A stretch of DNA of 47,172 bases from contig NC_057751.1 of assembly GCF_004010195.1 (NCBI RefSeq), positions 8,510,279-8,557,450 of the forward strand, given 5' to 3'. The notes under the pieces were generated by a model. That model was given only the letters and a program-made list of their open reading frames with translations, was not told the origin of the DNA and did no database searches. Each line of letters begins with the position of its first letter. The stretch's first letter is position 1. Position numbers and translations under genes: made by a program. Shown one piece after another: positions 2,822-10,092 of the stretch. This stretch comes from Chiloscyllium plagiosum (taxonomy: Eukaryota).

Positions 2822-3835
2822 TGTTAGGATCTTCACTGATATTTCATTGCTTTATTTATTTTTATTGTTTTTTCAGTTTTGGTTTGGAGTTGTGAATTAG
2901 GAATTGTGAGCTATAAATGTCTTGTGGGCTTTGGGATACCCTGGGGTAAAAAGAAAATAACAGACCAAACAAGCTTTCATGAGTTTGTGGGGCACAGCCT
3001 GGAAATTCAATGTGGGCTGAGTCTTGATTAAAAGGGTTTCCAATGGGCACAGAGACACTGAGAAGAGCATTATGTTTAAATAGTTGGCGATTGACTAGAT
3101 CAGTATCTGGGAATTGGTTCTGTCAAAAGACCCACTGTTCAAGCAGAAGCAGCCTTTCAATAGCAATTGAGGTTTTAAGATAAGTTCAGTCTATCCGGGT
3201 GGAAACAGAATTGAAGGTTTTTCTTTTGGAACCATGATTCCTGAGAAGACAAAACTGATTGCTAACAAGACAATATGAACATTTGAAAATTCTCTGCCTA
3301 GTCTATTATTCCAGCCTCTGGAAAACCAAAGAATAGAAAGCTGAGTGAGAAACATTACCATCTGTATGTTTGTGAAGGTAGGAGGTGATCTTAAACAGTT
3401 GCTCCAGAAGAGGACCTGAGGAGTCCATATTTACGCCTGTGAAACAACATACTTTGAAAACCAATTAAGTAATCTCATCAGTTCTGTTAGTTTCTTTTAT
3501 TTATCCCGTTACTGCATTTGTTTGTCTGTCTGTCTGTCTTTTGCATGAATGGGGGCTAGAAACAAATCTTACAGGTTTAAAGTATAGACAATGATAAACT
3601 TAGCTTGTTGTTTCTACTCAGGTCATCATGTGTCTAATAAACAGTTTAAATCTTTGAAATACAAAACTGTGCCTGGAATTAATTATGCACAAAGTCTGAG
3701 ACTGGTTCTTCACAAGACTACTTAGGGCCCATTGGAGTAATTACTGGGGGTCTTTGAGGATTTATCTTTGCCATGTTTGGACTACAGTGGAATGAAGAGT
3801 GATTTGGTTCAGCTGCCTGTCTTTATGTGCTAACA
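2822..3835 (+). mobile_element. Solo LTR (about 1.0 kb)
   Basis: Ends TGTTAG...CTAACA; 4-bp flanks TAAT/TAGT; AATAAA near 3636. Confidence 0.6.
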
Positions 3836-5390: not shown

Positions 5391-6562
5391 TCAATTGGAA
5401 ATACATCCAATCATTTTTCTTTTACTGTATGGCCACATTAGCTGCACATATCAATACTCAAGTGTTATCCTAATCAAACCACCCCCACCTCCCCATTCCC
5501 ACATCTTTTAAAATCATTCATAGGATGTGGGCATCTCTGGCTAGGTCAGCATTTATTGCCCAATCAAAATGATGCAGAGAGCAGTTAGATTTAGATATCA
5601 ACTTAATTGTCACAAATACTCAAGTACAAAAGTGCAGGTATACAGTGAAAAGTTTTCACACGGCACCATTTTTGATCTAAGTAACCAGGTACAAAAACGT
5701 AAGAACAAAATAGTAATACGTAAGGAACTAATTTAAAAGTTAAGCACGACAGTGATTCTTAGTGTAGGTAAAAGAGAAAAGAAATGAAGTTGAAAGTTGA
5801 ACATTACAGTACCTCTCAGTATTAAGTCAAAAAAAAGAAAAATAAAGACAGCTAGTGCAGTCTTTCTGAAGTTTTTAGCCATGCTTACTGCACTGGGCTC
5901 AATCTCCTCCACTTTGGCATCCTTTCTCCGCACTGGCTCAGTCTCCCTTTTCTTGGTGTTGTTGCAGGTGTTGGGGGAAACCTCTGTCACCACGTTGGGC
6001 TCGCTCGCAGAATCTCAGACCACCAAAGCCCCCACCCTGACACCATCCCCACCAAACCCCAGCCTTGCCTTGAGTTCATGCACCAGGCCTCAGTCTCACC
6101 TTCAGTTAGAATAAAGACCACGCTGGCATCCCCCTTTCCGGTGCTCTGGACAAAATATTGCTGCATTCTGGCACAGGTTGGAGAGTGGACAGCTCTCGTA
6201 TGTGTGACATTCTGGTACAAAGGTGCCCTATTACCTTCAGTCACATTCTCTACAGCATGGAGCCTATATCATGTTTTCAGACGGTCAGTTATGTGTCAGT
6301 AGTATACAGCAACATCAGTAACCATAGAACCCAGACTATGCGTCAAAGTCTGTGATAGCGTCGCTTTGACAGTGATGAGTACAGCAAATAAACTTCATAT
6401 TACCTGACTCGCCAAGAAGGCAGAGACCTATGGGATACGTTACGTGGGATAACAGAGGCAAAATCACAACCCCATCACAAATCTCCCTCAACCTCCAACA
6501 GAAACAAGCAAACTGGTCACAAAAGCTGCCAGAAACCTGTGAAAATTTATTATAGTCATATC

Positions 6563-6775
6563 TGAAATAACTGCACAGAAGACGGTATCACATCACCAAG
6601 TTACTCTTTATTTACATATGCACAGTTCACAGACTCTGACCAGAGTCAGTCCCGAGAGTGAGGAGAATTCCTGATGCTCCTGTCAGCCAGGGCTTCCTGA
6701 TTGGATCAGGTTAAAAGTCCCAGTCAAGGATTTCATTGTCCATGAGACCAACCTGGCTCCAATCAATACACAATA
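6563..6775 (-). mobile_element. Solo LTR, same family as 7613-9527, without insertion
   Basis: Reverse complement aligns to AATCAGGAAGCCCT..TGACAG and ..GTTATTTCA of the 7613-9527 LTR. Confidence 0.75.
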
Positions 6776-7555: not shown

Positions 7556-7722
7556 CCAAAGGCAAAAACAAAACACTGTGTTTGTGTAGTGCCTTTTATA
7601 ATGTCAGAACATTGTTGTGAATGGGACAAGGCCAGCCAGGTGGATTGCATAGAATATGAGTTCCTTGATCGTTAATCTGGCACAATCAGGAAGCCCTAGT
7701 TGACAGATAGAAACAGGATTTT

Positions 7723-8294
7723 CACCCGGTACGGAAGAGGGAGGGCAGGTCTGAAGACCTCCTCGTGGGTGTGCTCCTGGACCTGGCCAAACTGGCAATA
7801 AACAGGTCCAGGCAGCGGGCCGTGAAGGGGGTCGTTAGGGCCGACTGCCTGCCCCTCTTCCACGGTTAATTTAAAGCCCAGGTGTCCTTGGAGAAGGAGC
7901 ACGCGGTCTCCACTCTCACCCTGGATATGTTCAGGGAGAGGTGGGCGCCGCAGGGAGTGGAGTGCATCATTTCTCCCTCCAACTCTATTTTGATTTAGTC
8001 CCTACCCTCCCCTTCACTGTTTTGATCACACCGCACTGCCCTTTGATGTGAAGGGCAGTGCTTGTCACTGGCCACCCGGGTGTTTTCCTATATTCCTGGT
8101 GGTGGAATTTGAATAAAGATTCGTGCACTTTGTGTCTTTCACTGTGTCTCACACCTGCGCGCACACACCATGGGTGCTGGGGATAAAATAAGCACTACCG
8201 CACTTAGGTGATAATGTGGGGGTTAAAGGGGAAAAAAAATATAAAAAAAAAGAAAGAAAAAAAAGAAAAAAAAATTAAAAAAAGGAAAAAAAAA
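7723..8294 (+). mobile_element. Tx1-clade non-LTR retrotransposon, 5'-truncated copy 1
   Basis: Frame from 7723 reads HPVRKREGRSEDLLVGVLLDLAKLAINRSRQRAVKGVVRADCLPLFHG*FKAQVSLEKEHAVSTLTLDMFRERWAPQGVECIISPSNSILI* (stop 7996-7998), resembling the Tx1 ORF2 C-terminus; 3' UTR; long A-rich tail; flanked by GAAACAGGATTTT. Confidence 0.8.
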
Positions 8295-8307
8295 GAAACA
8301 GGATTTT

Positions 8308-8907
8308 CACCCGGTACGGAAGAGGGAGGGCAGGTCTGAAGACCTCCTCGTGGGTCTGCTCCTGGACCTGGCCAAACTGGCAATAAACAGGTCCAGGCAG
8401 CGGGCCGTGAAGGGGGTCGTTAGGGCCGACTGCCTGCCCCTCTTCCACGGTTAATTTAGAGCCCAGGTGTCCTTGGAGAAGGAGCACGCGGTCTCCACCC
8501 TCACCCTGGATATGTTCAGGGAGAGGTGGGCGCTGCAGGGAGTGGAGTGTATTATTTCCCCCTCCAACTCTATTTTGATTTAATCCCTGCCTTCCCCTTC
8601 ACTGTTTGATCACACAGCATTGCCCTTTGATGTGAAGGGCAGTGTTTGTCACTGGCAACTCGGGTGTTTTTTTTTCTTCCTGGTGGTGGAAATTTGAATA
8701 AAGATTCATGCACCTTGTGTCTTTCGGTGTGTCTCACACCTGCACACACACACAACATGGGCGCTGGGGGAAAAAATAAGAACTACCGCAGTTAGGTGGT
8801 AGTGTGGGAGTTAAAAAAAAAAGGAAAAAAACAGGAATGTCAGAGTTTCTGTTCTCTCTAAGACCTGGCTCTTGAGGGAGCTGGACCAGTGTGTGTTAAA
8901 AAAAAAA
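8308..8907 (+). mobile_element. Tx1-clade copy 2 with 3'-transduced LTR segment (8829-8897) and a second poly(A)
   Basis: Same ORF2 end; A-tail about 8813-8830, LTR-like segment, A-tail 8898-8907; GAAACAGGATTTT at 8295-8307 and 8908-8920. Confidence 0.8.
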
Positions 8908-8920
8908 GAAACAGGATTTT

Positions 8921-9282
8921 AGCCCGGGTGTCTCTGGAAAAGGAGCACATGATGTCCACCAACACTCTGGAGTTGTTCAGGGAGAGGTGGGTGCCGCAGG
9001 GAGTGGAGTGCATTATTTCCCCCTCCAACTCTATGTCGATTTAATCCCTGCCCTCCCCTTCAGTGTTTGATCACACAGCATTGATGTGAAGGGCACCGCT
9101 TGTCACTGGCCACTCGGGTGTTTCCTTTCTCCCTGGTGGTGGAAATTTGAATAAAGATTCATGCACCTTGTGTCTTTCACTGTGTCTCACACCTGCACAC
9201 ACACAACATGGGTGCTGGGGGGAAAAATAAGCACTACCGCAGTTAGGCGGTAGTGTTGGGGGGTAATAGGAAAGAAAAAAAA
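8921..9282 (+). mobile_element. Tx1-clade copy 3 (shorter 5' truncation)
   Basis: Begins in the ..ARVSLEKEH.. region; same 3' UTR; A-rich tail; GAAACAGGATTTT at 9283-9295. Confidence 0.8.
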
Positions 9283-9291
9283 GAAACAGGA

Positions 9292-9389
9292 TTTTCCTTC
9301 TCCTCGGATGCTGCCTGACCTGCTGTGCTTTTCCATCACCACTCTAATCTTGACTCTGATTTCCAGCATCTGCAGTCCTCACTTTTGCC
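9292..9389. mobile_element. Short Penelope-derived fragment inserted in the LTR
   Basis: TTTTCC..CTCCTCGGATGCTGCCTGACCTGCTGTGCTTTTCC..CATCTGCAGTCCTCACTTT; 15-bp TSD CAGATAGAAACAGGA at 7704-7718 and 9390-9404. Confidence 0.8.
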
Positions 9390-10092
9390 CAGATAGAAAC
9401 AGGAGTGTCAGAGTTCTGCTCACCCTAGGAGCTAGCTCTTAGCTAGCTGGGTCAGTGTTATGCGCTATGTATGTGTAAAGAAAGGGTGAGTTGATGCTGG
9501 GATACCGGCCTCTGTGGAGTTATTTCAGACATCTCATGCAATAATTAAGCACTTCTGAAGTCTAGCCACTCGTGTCATGCAGGAAAACTAACTGCCTACT
9601 GCCAATTCTCACATAGCAAGCTCCGACAAACAGCCATGCAAAATAAGTACGAGATGGAAGGACAGATATCAGCCAGGACATGAAAGAAAAGTCCCTTTCT
9701 CTTCTCCAAAAGACTTGTGATGGGAGCTCATAAATCTGAGAAAACACGTGAGTCTCAGTTTAAAAGAGAGCTCAAAGTGAACAGCACTGCACTCGGTGTT
9801 GCAAAAAATATAGGCATAGGATTGACTATCAATGTTGGCAGAGTGTGTGAAATGGATCCACAAAGTTTCTGACTCATGTGTGAGATCTACCGGAGTCTGA
9901 ACAGAATATAATTGATACGTTTCATCGACCTGCCTGGATATACTACATTGTTATTTTATCAAAGAGTTCAGGCACGTTCTGATACAGGCAGAACTTGAAC
10001 CTGCGTTCTAGCTCAGAGCTAAGGACACTGTGACTGATGATGCACCACAAGTGAATGTGTATGTTGTTGTGAATAAACCAAACAGGAACTTT

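What the first reader, a model, noticed from the sequence alone, without database searches (positions are those of the whole stretch)
7613..9527. Candidate sequence-specific Tx1 retrotransposon that targets the TATA-like site of an LTR family
Seen: three 5'-truncated copies of one LINE 3' end lie in tandem inside a solo LTR. Every junction carries the same 13-mer GAAACAGGATTTT (7710, 8295, 8908, 9283), so each poly(A) end joins the same base (AGATA|GAAACAGGA). Copies 2 and 3 have different truncation points and scattered differences, so they look like independent insertions. Known: Tx1-clade elements are often target-specific (Xenopus Tx1L/Tx2L in Tx1D/Tx2D, Kibi and Koshi in microsatellites, Keno in U2 snRNA, Mutsu in 5S rRNA, Dewa in tRNA spacers). 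Inference: this family parasitises an LTR retroelement at its presumed promoter (GATAGAAACAGG), using a multicopy safe site and perhaps silencing or borrowing that promoter. I do not know of this pairing being described, but cannot exclude that it is catalogued.
Basis: partly seen in the sequence, partly recalled or inferred. Interest (0 to 1): 0.85.

Follow-up and report, generated by a model that had tools for sequence, protein, structure and literature searches.

The report
Tx1 LINE targeting an LTR's TATA motif
A jumping gene of the Tx1 type has landed several times, head to tail, at one exact spot (the TATA-like promoter motif) in the terminal repeat of another jumping gene; this habit is already known for the group, and here it appears with a new host and a new target.

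Summary
Three 5'-truncated LINE 3' ends (7723-8294, 8308-8907, 8921-9282) lie in tandem inside a solo LTR (7613-9527). The 13-mer GAAACAGGATTTT sits at all four junctions. It is a target-site duplication.

- **The LINE is Tx1-clade.** Its ORF2 is colinear with Xenopus Tx1L ORF2: 41% identity in the endonuclease, 54% in the RT, 40% in the C-terminus. Human L1 ORF2p matches far more weakly.
- **The target is the TATA-like motif** (GATATAAACAGGAGTGT) of a ~235-bp LTR that also has a CCAAT box, an AATAAA signal, TG..CA ends and an upstream purine tract.
- **From the LINE side:** 29 of 58 sampled arrays abut this LTR at this nucleotide, all in the LTR's orientation.
- **From the LTR side:** 8 of 40 sampled LTR halves carry a Tx1-type insert at this spot.
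- **The rest** lie at dispersed sites with clean 9-19-bp duplications, so this is a strong preference, not strict specificity.
- **Arrays are the family's rule** and fit repeated insertion into the regenerated site.
- **In the window,** copies 2 and 3 arrived separately. Copies 1 and 2 share their start and 24 private substitutions, so their 5' parts are not independent.
- **Promoter borrowing or silencing is untested.**

Tx1 families that target LTR retrotransposons are in print for crocodilians, so this is a new member of a known kind.

The parts
7613..7709 (+). 5' part of the solo LTR (U3-like), up to AGATA just before the insertion point. It contains a CCAAT-like box (cacaatcagg).
   Evidence: It aligns to LTR positions 17-118 of intact genomic copies. 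The alignment of 14 intact LTRs is.
7704..7718 (+). Upstream copy of the 15-bp direct repeat CAGATAGAAACAGGA, which is the duplication made by the older 99-nt insert.
   Evidence: The same 15-mer stands at 9391-9405. Intact LTRs have the motif once.
7710..7722 (+). Target-site duplication, copy 1 (GAAACAGGATTTT).
7723..8294 (+). LINE copy 1: the last ~96 codons of ORF2, the 3' UTR, and a 64-nt A-rich tail (8231-8294).
   Evidence: Its 3' half is close to the young family majority.
8295..8307 (+). Target-site duplication, copy 2.
8308..8828 (+). LINE copy 2 with its first A tail. It has the same 5' start as copy 1. Its 5' 300 nt share 24 private substitutions with copy 1, and its 3' 250 nt share 12 with copy 3.
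8829..8907 (+). LTR-like piece (8829-8897, matching LTR positions 85-147) followed by a second A tail. It is probably 3' flank carried over from a source copy lying in another LTR.
   Evidence: (89% identity to LTR copy L083) and family D9.
8908..8920 (+). Target-site duplication, copy 3.
8921..9282 (+). LINE copy 3. It is shorter, has a different 5' truncation point, belongs to an older subfamily, and ends in an A-rich tail.
9283..9295 (+). Target-site duplication, copy 4.
9292..9390 (-). Older 99-nt fragment of a hyper-abundant dispersed repeat, inserted at the same motif before the LINEs arrived. On the minus strand it ends in GGAAAA.
   Evidence: It is flanked by the 15-bp repeat. Summed word depth over 9248-9401 is 2.4-3.6 million in three DNA-type runs. 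The LINE duplication includes its TTTT, so it is older than the LINE insertions.
9391..9527 (+). 3' part of the solo LTR: the second, empty copy of the target motif, then the R/U5-like part with the poly(A)-signal region, ending in TTATTTCA.
   Evidence: It aligns to LTR positions 92-230 at 88%. The matching 3' ends of other copies are.

Best explanation
A Tx1-clade non-LTR retrotransposon (apurinic-type endonuclease, RT, C-terminal CCHC finger) inserts by target-primed reverse transcription, with a strong preference for one site. That site is the TATA-like motif of a ~235-bp LTR, and insertion is in the LTR's orientation.

Shown by the junctions:
- The LINE's A tail abuts (A)TAAACAGGAG. In the window's LTR variant this reads GAAACAGGA.
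- The LINE's 5' end follows ..GGAGTGT.
- This gives a 13-15-bp target-site duplication.

Inferred from the TPRT model: the bottom strand is nicked at GAT(A)|(T)AAAC, and the top strand about 13 nt downstream.

Because the duplication regenerates the motif on both sides, the site can be hit again. Tandem arrays of differently truncated copies therefore build up, each separated by the duplication, together with tail-only inserts. Growth mainly at the 5' junction is inferred from a 15:4 asymmetry and is only suggestive.

In the window the order of events was:
1. The LTR integrated.
2. A 99-nt piece of another repeat inserted at the motif.
3. At least two separate LINE insertions followed (copy 3 and copy 2, from an older subfamily).
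4. Copy 1 arose. Its 5' part duplicates copy 2's, and its 3' part is of the young type, which points to recombination or homology-assisted joining.
For: **Clade**
- Pfam finds RVT_1 (1.5e-35), plus zf-RVT and Exo_endo_phos below their gathering scores.
- Xenopus Tx1L ORF2 (P0007) matches at 54% identity over 100% of the 582-aa RT ORF, 648 bits.
- The endonuclease is 41% identical to Tx1L residues 47-468, and the C-terminus 40% identical to residues 885-1291.
- Human L1 ORF2p scores 120 bits.

**Target seen from the LINE side**
- I examined 58 distinct 3.2-kb loci, the loci returned for the best-scoring 30 of the 40 matches scored in each of two searches.
- 25 have the LTR 5' half ending in ..GACAGATATAAACAGGAGTGT directly followed by LINE sequence.
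- 17 have A tail + (T)AAACAGGAGTGTCAGAGG.. continuing as the LTR 3' half.
- The union is 29 of 58, and 13 have both sides. All 29 are on the LINE's strand, as the count required; on the opposite strand one LTR piece lies next to a LINE, at another position (L036).
- ACAGGAG (up to 1 mismatch) lies within 16 nt of the tail end at 39 of 112 complete 3' ends, against 389 of 10,840 random windows.

**Target seen from the LTR side**
- Of 20 sampled LTR 3' halves, 14 are intact, 1 has this LINE and 1 has a second tail type at the site.
- Of 20 sampled 5' halves, 13 continue as LTR, 5 have this LINE and 1 has the second tail type right after the duplication.

**The motif belongs to the LTR, not the LINE**
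- Intact LTRs carry it once and contiguously.
- Non-LTR insertions have their own duplications.

**Relative ages**
- LINE copies are 95-97% alike.
- LTR halves are 78-88% alike.
- So a younger LINE invaded older LTRs.

**Repeated hits**
- Junction motifs recur within arrays alongside different truncation points.
- L063 has three tail-only units.
- The best copy is 5'-most in its array in 15 loci, 3'-most in 4, in the middle in 7 and single in 4, out of 30.
Against: - 29 of 58 loci show no LTR at the array's edge. Some arrays run off the 3.2-kb locus, but 14 have clean duplications at unrelated sites. Those sites resemble the LTR motif only weakly (mean 7.07 against 6.13 matches of 14; one-sided Mann-Whitney p = 0.009).
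- The loci are the top-scoring matches among more than 1,000 candidates, not a random sample.
- Another abundant repeat also landed at this TATA motif twice (window 9292-9390, and L121). The motif could therefore be partly a general hot spot.
- The endonuclease's specificity was not assayed.
- No contig from public runs spans the window's array.
- Copies 1 and 2 share ancestry, so the window holds fewer than three clean insertions.
- Clade placement rests on similarity, not on a rooted tree.
Confidence: 0.85

Rival explanations
1. One insertion followed by local duplication. The window's array arose from a single LINE insertion that was multiplied by unequal crossing-over or replication slippage between the short repeats, so there was no repeated targeting.
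For: Copies 1 and 2 have the same 5' start, are 97% identical over 300 nt, and share 24 private substitutions. Copy 2 is a mosaic of copy-1-like and copy-3-like parts.
Against: Copy 3 starts about 200 nt further in, and it shares only 2 derived changes with copy 1. Only copy 2 carries the LTR-like carried-over piece. Dozens of other arrays show different truncation points at every junction. Duplication probably contributed to copy 1 but cannot explain the whole array.
Confidence: 0.07
2. A generic AT-rich hot spot. The LINE has only an L1-like taste for (T/A)|A(T/A) sites, and the LTR's TATA box is just an abundant, accessible AT-rich island. No specific recognition of the LTR is involved.
For: Non-LTR duplications start with A(T/A) after a T or A and resemble the LTR motif only weakly. 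An unrelated repeat also inserted at this TATA motif in the window and in L121.
Against: 29 of 58 arrays lie at one nucleotide position, and the only adjacent LTR piece on the opposite strand lies at another position (L036). The LTR family covers roughly 0.015% of the genome, estimated from the 2,302 first-look candidates. My by-eye reading of unrelated LTR pieces in the sampled loci suggests at most about 0.3%. AT-rich sites of this kind are everywhere, yet 20-30% of sampled LTR copies are occupied.
Confidence: 0.06
3. Assembly artefact. The tandem array in the window is a mis-join of reads from several dispersed copies.
For: No contig from the four public runs laid on the region spans the array. 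The region consists of very high-copy words.
Against: The same architecture (LTR half, duplication, fragments, tails, duplication, LTR half) recurs at dozens of loci on different contigs. The three copies differ from each other in sequence and in ends. Contigs cover the outer junctions (records 7, 8 and 25).
Confidence: 0.02

Closest known systems
Tx1L of Xenopus laevis (the type element of the Tx1 clade), which inserts into the DNA transposon Tx1D
   Same: ORF2 is colinear with Tx1L ORF2 and 40-54% identical across the endonuclease, RT and C-terminal CCHC region. Like Tx1L, it inserts at a fixed site inside another multicopy mobile element. Tx1L's endonuclease nicks its target specifically (PMC1950540, passages read).
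   Different: The target here is an LTR retrotransposon's TATA-like motif, not a piggyBac-type DNA transposon. About half of the sampled arrays lie outside the target, so specificity looks looser than reported for Tx1L. The endonuclease was not assayed here.
Tx1-8_Crp and Tx1-4_AMi of crocodilians (Kojima 2015, PMC4494074)
   Same: [quoted passage not shown] By that paper's criterion, more than 20% of flanks in one kind of sequence makes a family target specific (passage). The present family qualifies with 29 of 58.
   Different: The host lineage and the LTR family are different. The paper's supplementary figures with the exact insertion positions could not be read, so I cannot say whether those families also hit a TATA motif. 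Whether the two are sister lineages or convergent is untested.
R1 tandem arrays and 'double insertion' dimers in Drosophila (McGurk and Barbash, bioRxiv 10.1101/158386)
   Same: Head-to-tail copies are separated by the target-site duplication. Distinct 5' truncations are taken there as evidence for separate insertions at one site (passages read).
   Different: Here arrays are the rule rather than the exception. They include tail-only units and 3'-truncated pieces, and they also form at non-LTR sites.
Human L1
   Same: Apurinic-type endonuclease, target-primed reverse transcription, A tails, 5' truncation and variable duplications. The nick lies at a T-rich/A junction (L1 consensus TTTT/AA; PMC1950540, passage).
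   Different: The RT match is only 120 bits, against 648 for Tx1L. L1 has no comparable preference for a single site.

Membership tests
Tx1 clade of non-LTR retrotransposons | The RT domain groups with Tx1 elements rather than with L1 or other clades | tested here: met
   The test is by similarity only. Tx1L scores 648 bits, 54% identity and 100% coverage. Human L1 ORF2p scores 120 bits and R2 scores 62-64 bits. No rooted tree or RTclass-type classification was run.
Tx1 clade of non-LTR retrotransposons | N-terminal apurinic-type (APE) endonuclease in ORF2 | tested here: met
   41% identity to Tx1L residues 47-468. The Pfam Exo_endo_phos hit is weak: E 6e-4, 20.1 bits, below the 24.5-bit cut-off.
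Tx1 clade of non-LTR retrotransposons | C-terminal cysteine-histidine motif after the RT | tested here: met
   CLFCG..H....C aligns with Tx1L residues 1150-1180. The zf-RVT hit (9e-5, 23.5 bits) is below its 27.5-bit cut-off.
Tx1 clade of non-LTR retrotransposons | An ORF1 upstream of ORF2 | tested here: inconclusive
   ORFs upstream of ORF2 in L063 gave no Pfam hit. Long stretches of that region in other copies read as N. The 5' end could not be defined.
Target-specific Tx1 family, by Kojima's working criterion | More than 20% of flanks fall in one kind of sequence (PMC4494074, passage) | tested here: met
   29 of 58 sampled loci lie at one position and in one orientation of one LTR family. 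The loci are the top-scoring matches, not a random sample.
LTR retrotransposon (identity of the target) | Terminal repeat with TG..CA ends and internal promoter and poly(A) signals | tested here: met
   The 14 aligned intact copies begin TGTAGTG and end TTTCA. They carry CCAATCAG, GATATAAAC and AAATAAAG in that order.
LTR retrotransposon (identity of the target) | Internal coding region with a polypurine tract next to the 3' LTR | tested here: inconclusive
   Three copies (L035, L044, L063) share upstream sequence that ends in a purine tract just before TGT... One 70-aa ORF there hits the integrase core rve at E 1.5e-4, 22.4 bits, below the 32.6-bit cut-off. I found no full element with two LTRs.
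LTR retrotransposon (identity of the target) | Short (4-6 bp) duplications flanking solo copies | tested here: inconclusive
   A 4-bp match is readable in 2 of the 5 copies whose flanks I compared by eye, among the 8 printed with both flanks: the window copy and L028. The copies are old and diverged.
TATA box as a functional promoter element | Directs transcription initiation of the LTR | not testable with these tools
   Only position supports it: it lies 3' of the CCAAT box and about 105 nt 5' of AATAAA. No usable RNA evidence was available.

The most novel reading that the evidence does not exclude
The LINE does more than use the LTR as a safe harbour. It lands 15 nt downstream of the first T of the LTR's TATA box and in the LTR's orientation. 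The LTR's CCAAT/TATA promoter would then start transcription a few bases inside the insert, supplying the LINE's promoter, while the LTR's own R-U5 is cut off from it.

On this reading, recognition would rest on the U3 side plus the duplicated motif. That would explain why arrays grow at their 5' junction, and why the upstream motif copy in the window was hit while the downstream copy stayed empty.
Probability: 0.2. Interest if true: 0.6.

Novelty: new member of a known kind. Interest (0 to 1): 0.4.

Why it matters
The finding adds a well-resolved case to the list of Tx1 elements that home onto other mobile elements. The host genome has abundant young copies, and the junctions can be read to the base.

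The target is a core-promoter motif of an LTR. This makes two ideas directly testable:
- whether a target-specific LINE takes its transcription from the element it parasitises;
- whether it disables that element's promoter.

The mix of about 50% on-target arrays and clean off-target insertions is also useful material for asking how much of Tx1 targeting comes from the endonuclease and how much from something else.

It does not change what is known about the kind. Target preference in Tx1 elements, LTR targets, and tandem arrays formed by repeated insertion are all in print.

Tried and rejected
- **Whole genome as a file:** I used searches of the window's own genome and short stretches instead.
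- **Locus allowance:** I sampled the first 20 places of each as 220-350-nt stretches.
- **Checking the array against public runs:** all four runs laid on the region are short contigs. None spans the array, so the misassembly question stays open. No RNA holder was listed. One run guessed to be RNA holds LINE words, but this cannot show transcription.
- **Defining the LINE's 5' end, to test promoter borrowing:** the putative 5' UTR has 443 first-look candidates. In all 20 copies read, it is preceded, without an A tail, by the LINE's own ORF2 end and the first ~95 nt of its 3' UTR. Those upstream parts end at variable points next to the duplication motif. No fixed 5' end was found.
- **LTR origin of that 5' UTR:** I rejected the idea. 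The best local match is 15 nt, and 10 of 300 shuffles reach its score.
- **ORF1 region:** Pfam gave no hits.
- **Supplementary figures of PMC4494074** (exact LTR insertion sites of the crocodilian families): not readable here.
- **Earlier notes of this scan:** nothing by place or by sequence. A search by words gave cases in other genomes only.
- **Literature searches for a cartilaginous-fish Tx1 with an LTR target:** none found. Repbase and Dfam could not be queried.
- **Not attempted:** a rooted RT tree, because no L1 outgroup sequence was at hand as a protein id.
Full report
**What is in the window**

The 13-mer GAAACAGGATTTT stands at 7710, 8295, 8908 and 9283. With one mismatch allowed, 0.13 matches are expected, and none of 100 shuffles reached four.

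Three copies of one LINE 3' end lie between these 13-mers, each ending in an A-rich tail. Against a long genomic copy they align at 7723-8208, 8308-8796 and 8898-9248, with 87-93% identity. The outer flanks (7629-7724 and 9390-9527) match the two halves of a ~235-bp repeat.

- Copies 1 and 2 begin at the same LINE base.
- Copy 2's tail is followed by a 69-nt LTR-like piece (8829-8897) with a second A tail.
- The TTTT at the end of the 13-mer belongs to an older 99-nt insert (9292-9390). This insert has its own 15-bp duplication, CAGATAGAAACAGGA, at 7704-7718 and 9391-9405. It doubled the target motif, and only the upstream copy was used by the LINE.

**What the LINE is**

The window's genome is 3.56 Gb in 101,977 contigs. 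The first-look candidate counts are lower bounds:
- at least 1,170 for the LINE's 3' UTR;
- 2,446 for the ORF2 end;
- 443 for the putative 5' UTR.

A long copy (L063) and a 582-aa open RT frame (in L065) gave these Pfam results:
- RVT_1 at 1.5e-35;
- zf-RVT at 9e-5, below its cut-off;
- Exo_endo_phos at 6e-4, below its cut-off.

The best named full-length relative of the RT frame is the Xenopus laevis 'Transposon TX1 149 kDa protein', at 54% identity, 100% coverage and E 4e-189. Turtle proteins match at 48-52% with full coverage, and fish 'pol-like' proteins at 39-45%. The endonuclease part is 41% identical to Tx1L residues 47-468. The C-terminal part, including the CCHC motif, is 40% identical to residues 885-1291.

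Solved human L1 ORF2p chains score only 120 bits, and R2 proteins 62-64 bits. I take this as membership of the Tx1 clade by similarity. I did not build a rooted tree.

**What the host repeat is**

Fourteen intact genomic copies align over ~235 bp. They begin TGTAGTG and end TTATTTCA. In order, they carry a CCAAT box, the motif GACAGATATAAACAGGAGTGTCAG, and AAATAAAG about 105 nt further on.

Three copies (L035, L044, L063) are preceded by a shared sequence that ends in a purine tract directly before the repeat. One ORF there gives a weak integrase-core hit (E 1.5e-4, below the cut-off). Downstream flanks of the other copies are all different, so those are solo copies. A 4-bp flanking duplication is readable in 2 of the 5 copies I compared by eye, among the 8 printed with both flanks.

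This is an LTR of an LTR retrotransposon. I did not determine its superfamily. That the motif is its TATA box is inferred from position only.

**Target preference, from the LINE side**

I mapped LINE and LTR pieces in 58 distinct 3.2-kb loci. These were the loci returned for the best-scoring 30 of the 40 matches scored in each of two searches, with one duplicate locus dropped.
- In 25 loci the LTR 5' half, ending ..GACAGATATAAACAGGAGTGT, is followed at once by LINE sequence truncated at various points.
- In 17 loci an A tail is followed by (T)AAACAGGAGTGTCAGAGG.. and the rest of the LTR.
- The union is 29 of 58, and 13 loci show both sides.
- All 29 are on the LINE's strand, as the count required. 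One further LTR piece lies antisense next to a LINE, at another position (L036).
- A crude tail parser finds ACAGGAG (up to 1 mismatch) within 16 nt of the tail end at 39 of 112 complete 3' ends, against 389 of 10,840 random windows. This undercounts, because the parser stops early inside interrupted tails.

The LTR family covers about 0.015% of the genome if the 2,302 first-look candidates are taken at face value. My by-eye reading of unrelated LTR pieces in the sampled loci suggests perhaps 0.3%. Either way, the excess at one nucleotide position is very large.

**Target preference, from the LTR side**

Of the first 20 LTR 3' halves returned by the search:
- 14 are intact LTRs;
- 1 has this LINE's tail at the motif;
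- 1 has a second kind of A/T-rich tail there;
- 2 have another LTR's end plus an A-rich stretch there;
- 2 have the LTR element's internal region joined directly at the motif.

Of the first 20 LTR 5' halves:
- 13 continue as LTR, two of them with deletions around the motif;
- 5 have this LINE right after the duplication;
- 1 has the second tail type;
- 1 has the hyper-abundant repeat.

So 8 of 40 sampled halves carry a Tx1-type insert at this spot.

LTR halves are 78-88% identical to the window's copy. LINE 3' ends are 95-97% identical to the window's copy 1. A younger LINE family has therefore colonised an older LTR family.

**How it works**

The junctions show that the LINE's A tail meets the motif at (A)TAAAC (GAAAC in the window's variant), and that the LINE's 5' end follows GGAGTGT. 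The target-site duplication is 13-15 bp.

On the standard target-primed reverse-transcription model (established knowledge, not tested here), this means:
- a bottom-strand nick opposite GAT(A)|(T)AAAC, whose T-rich 3' end can pair with the A tail of the RNA;
- a top-strand nick about 13 nt downstream.

The duplication restores the motif at both junctions, so the site can be used again.

Arrays are the rule in this family:
- Most loci hold several fragments with different 5' ends, and the same short motif recurs at each junction.
- L063 even has three units that consist only of the motif plus an A run.
- Many fragments also lack the 3' end and carry an A tail at internal positions. I did not explain this. 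Internal priming or template switching are possibilities.

The best-matching copy is 5'-most in its array in 15 of 30 loci, 3'-most in 4, in the middle in 7 and single in 4. In total, 15 copies lie upstream of it and 48 downstream. This suggests that new copies enter mainly at the 5' junction, where the U3 side and the motif are both intact. It agrees with the window, where the upstream motif copy was hit and the 5'-most copy has the youngest-looking 3' part. The inference is suggestive, not proven.

Tandem copies separated by the duplication are the known signature of double insertion (R1 arrays and jockey dimers; bioRxiv 10.1101/158386, passages read).

**Off-target insertions**

Fourteen arrays or single copies without an LTR at their edges have clean duplications of 9-19 bp, most of them 12-16. 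These typically start with A(T/A) after a T or A. They resemble the LTR 14-mer only slightly more than matched random sites do (mean 7.07 against 6.13 matches of 14; one-sided Mann-Whitney p = 0.009).

The family therefore has a strong preference rather than strict specificity. What confers the preference is open. It could be the endonuclease, as shown for Tx1L (PMC1950540, passages), or another part of the RNP.

Short motif-plus-tail modules occur ahead of local duplications at non-LTR sites, for example in L037 and L045. The LTR-like piece after the window's copy 2 is of the same kind. Both fit source copies that lie in LTRs and whose transcripts run a little past their own tail.

**History of the window's array**

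Against the majority of ten young copies:
- copies 1 and 2 share 24 private substitutions in their first ~300 nt;
- copy 2 shares 12 with copy 3 in the last ~250 nt, the signature of an older subfamily seen elsewhere at 81-88% identity;
- copy 1's 3' part is close to the young majority.

Copies 2 and 3 are thus separate insertions. Copy 1 is a mosaic whose 5' part duplicates copy 2's. The cause may be unequal exchange followed by conversion, or a new cDNA that finished by copying the resident copy. I cannot tell which.

**Comparison with what is known**

- Tx1 elements are known for target preference: Tx1L in Tx1D, Keno in U2 genes, Kibi and Koshi in microsatellites (PMC4494074, passages).
[quoted passage not shown] Its supplementary figures could not be read, so I do not know their exact sites.
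- Whale shark and Callorhinchus are reported to possess Tx1 L1-like repeats (PMC8455134, one passage).
- Three full-text searches found no description of a Tx1 family with an LTR target in cartilaginous fishes. Repbase and Dfam could not be queried.
- Earlier notes of this scan describe LINEs in other genomes that sit next to the TATA box of an LTR. These are unchecked leads, not support.

**Limits**

- The loci are top-scoring matches, not a random sample.
- The array in the window is not validated by long reads. Only short contigs were available, and they cover the outer junctions but not the inside.
- A run under a second species label also holds the family at high depth. It has a junction-like loose end carrying the motif (run X10), which hints that the family and its target habit are shared beyond one species.
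- Promoter borrowing or silencing is untested. I could not define the LINE's 5' end, and an apparent LTR-like stretch in its 5' UTR is not significant.

**Verdict**

This is a real and well-supported case of a Tx1-clade LINE with a strong preference for the TATA-like motif of an LTR family, forming tandem arrays by repeated insertion. It is a new member of a known kind and of moderate interest.

Noticed in passing
window 9292-9390 (minus strand), with 15-bp repeats at 7704-7718 and 9391-9405; also L121: A 99-nt piece of a hyper-abundant dispersed repeat inserted at the same TATA-like motif before the LINEs arrived. Summed word depth is 2.4-3.6 million in three runs. A longer copy of the same repeat sits at the TATA motif of another LTR, in L121. 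The motif may also be a hot spot for other retroposons.
   Followed up: partly
window about 6541-6770, minus strand: A second solo copy of the same LTR family. In it, the TATA-like motif is missing through a ~10-bp deletion between two GACAG/ACAG words. It carries no LINE.
   Followed up: partly
L063 oriented 719-800 (G000:C14, minus strand): Three successive units that consist only of the target motif plus an A run (tail-only inserts), lying between the LTR 5' half and the first LINE fragment.
   Followed up: partly
L075, L125, L008, and L063 oriented about 8920-9417: A second kind of 3' tail, with a different ~450-nt end region and an A/T-rich end, abuts the same LTR motif. In L008 it is fused to the first ~35 nt after the LINE's stop codon. 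It may be a sister subfamily or a non-autonomous partner.
   Followed up: no
L086-L105, L106, L107-L112: The LINE's putative 5' UTR is GC-rich and has internal tandem monomers. In 20 of 20 copies read, it is preceded, without an A tail, by the LINE's own ORF2 end and the first ~95 nt of its 3' UTR. Templates therefore seem to be read-through or tandem units. No fixed 5' end was found.
   Followed up: partly
L069 and L082: The internal region of the LTR element is joined directly to the LTR at the TATA-like motif. The end of the internal region, the purine tract and U3 are missing. Unexplained.
   Followed up: no
L070 and L074: The 3' end of one LTR copy, then 20-30 nt, then an A-rich stretch, abuts the target motif of a second LTR copy. 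This could be retroposed read-through RNA placed at the same site.
   Followed up: no
L101 and L106 (oriented 3100-3420): An antisense SINE-like piece followed by an A tail lies inside arrays next to the target motif.
   Followed up: no
many loci, e.g. L002, L003, L010, L015: Many LINE fragments are truncated at the 3' side too, and carry an A tail at internal positions of the 3' UTR. The mechanism is open: internal priming on A-rich stretches, or template switching.
   Followed up: no
L062 1-2784 and 4343-5425; L065 1-2835; L106 4697-5795; L112 371-870: Long stretches of the upstream (ORF1 / 5') part of the long LINE copies read as N. This limited the reading of the full element.
   Followed up: no
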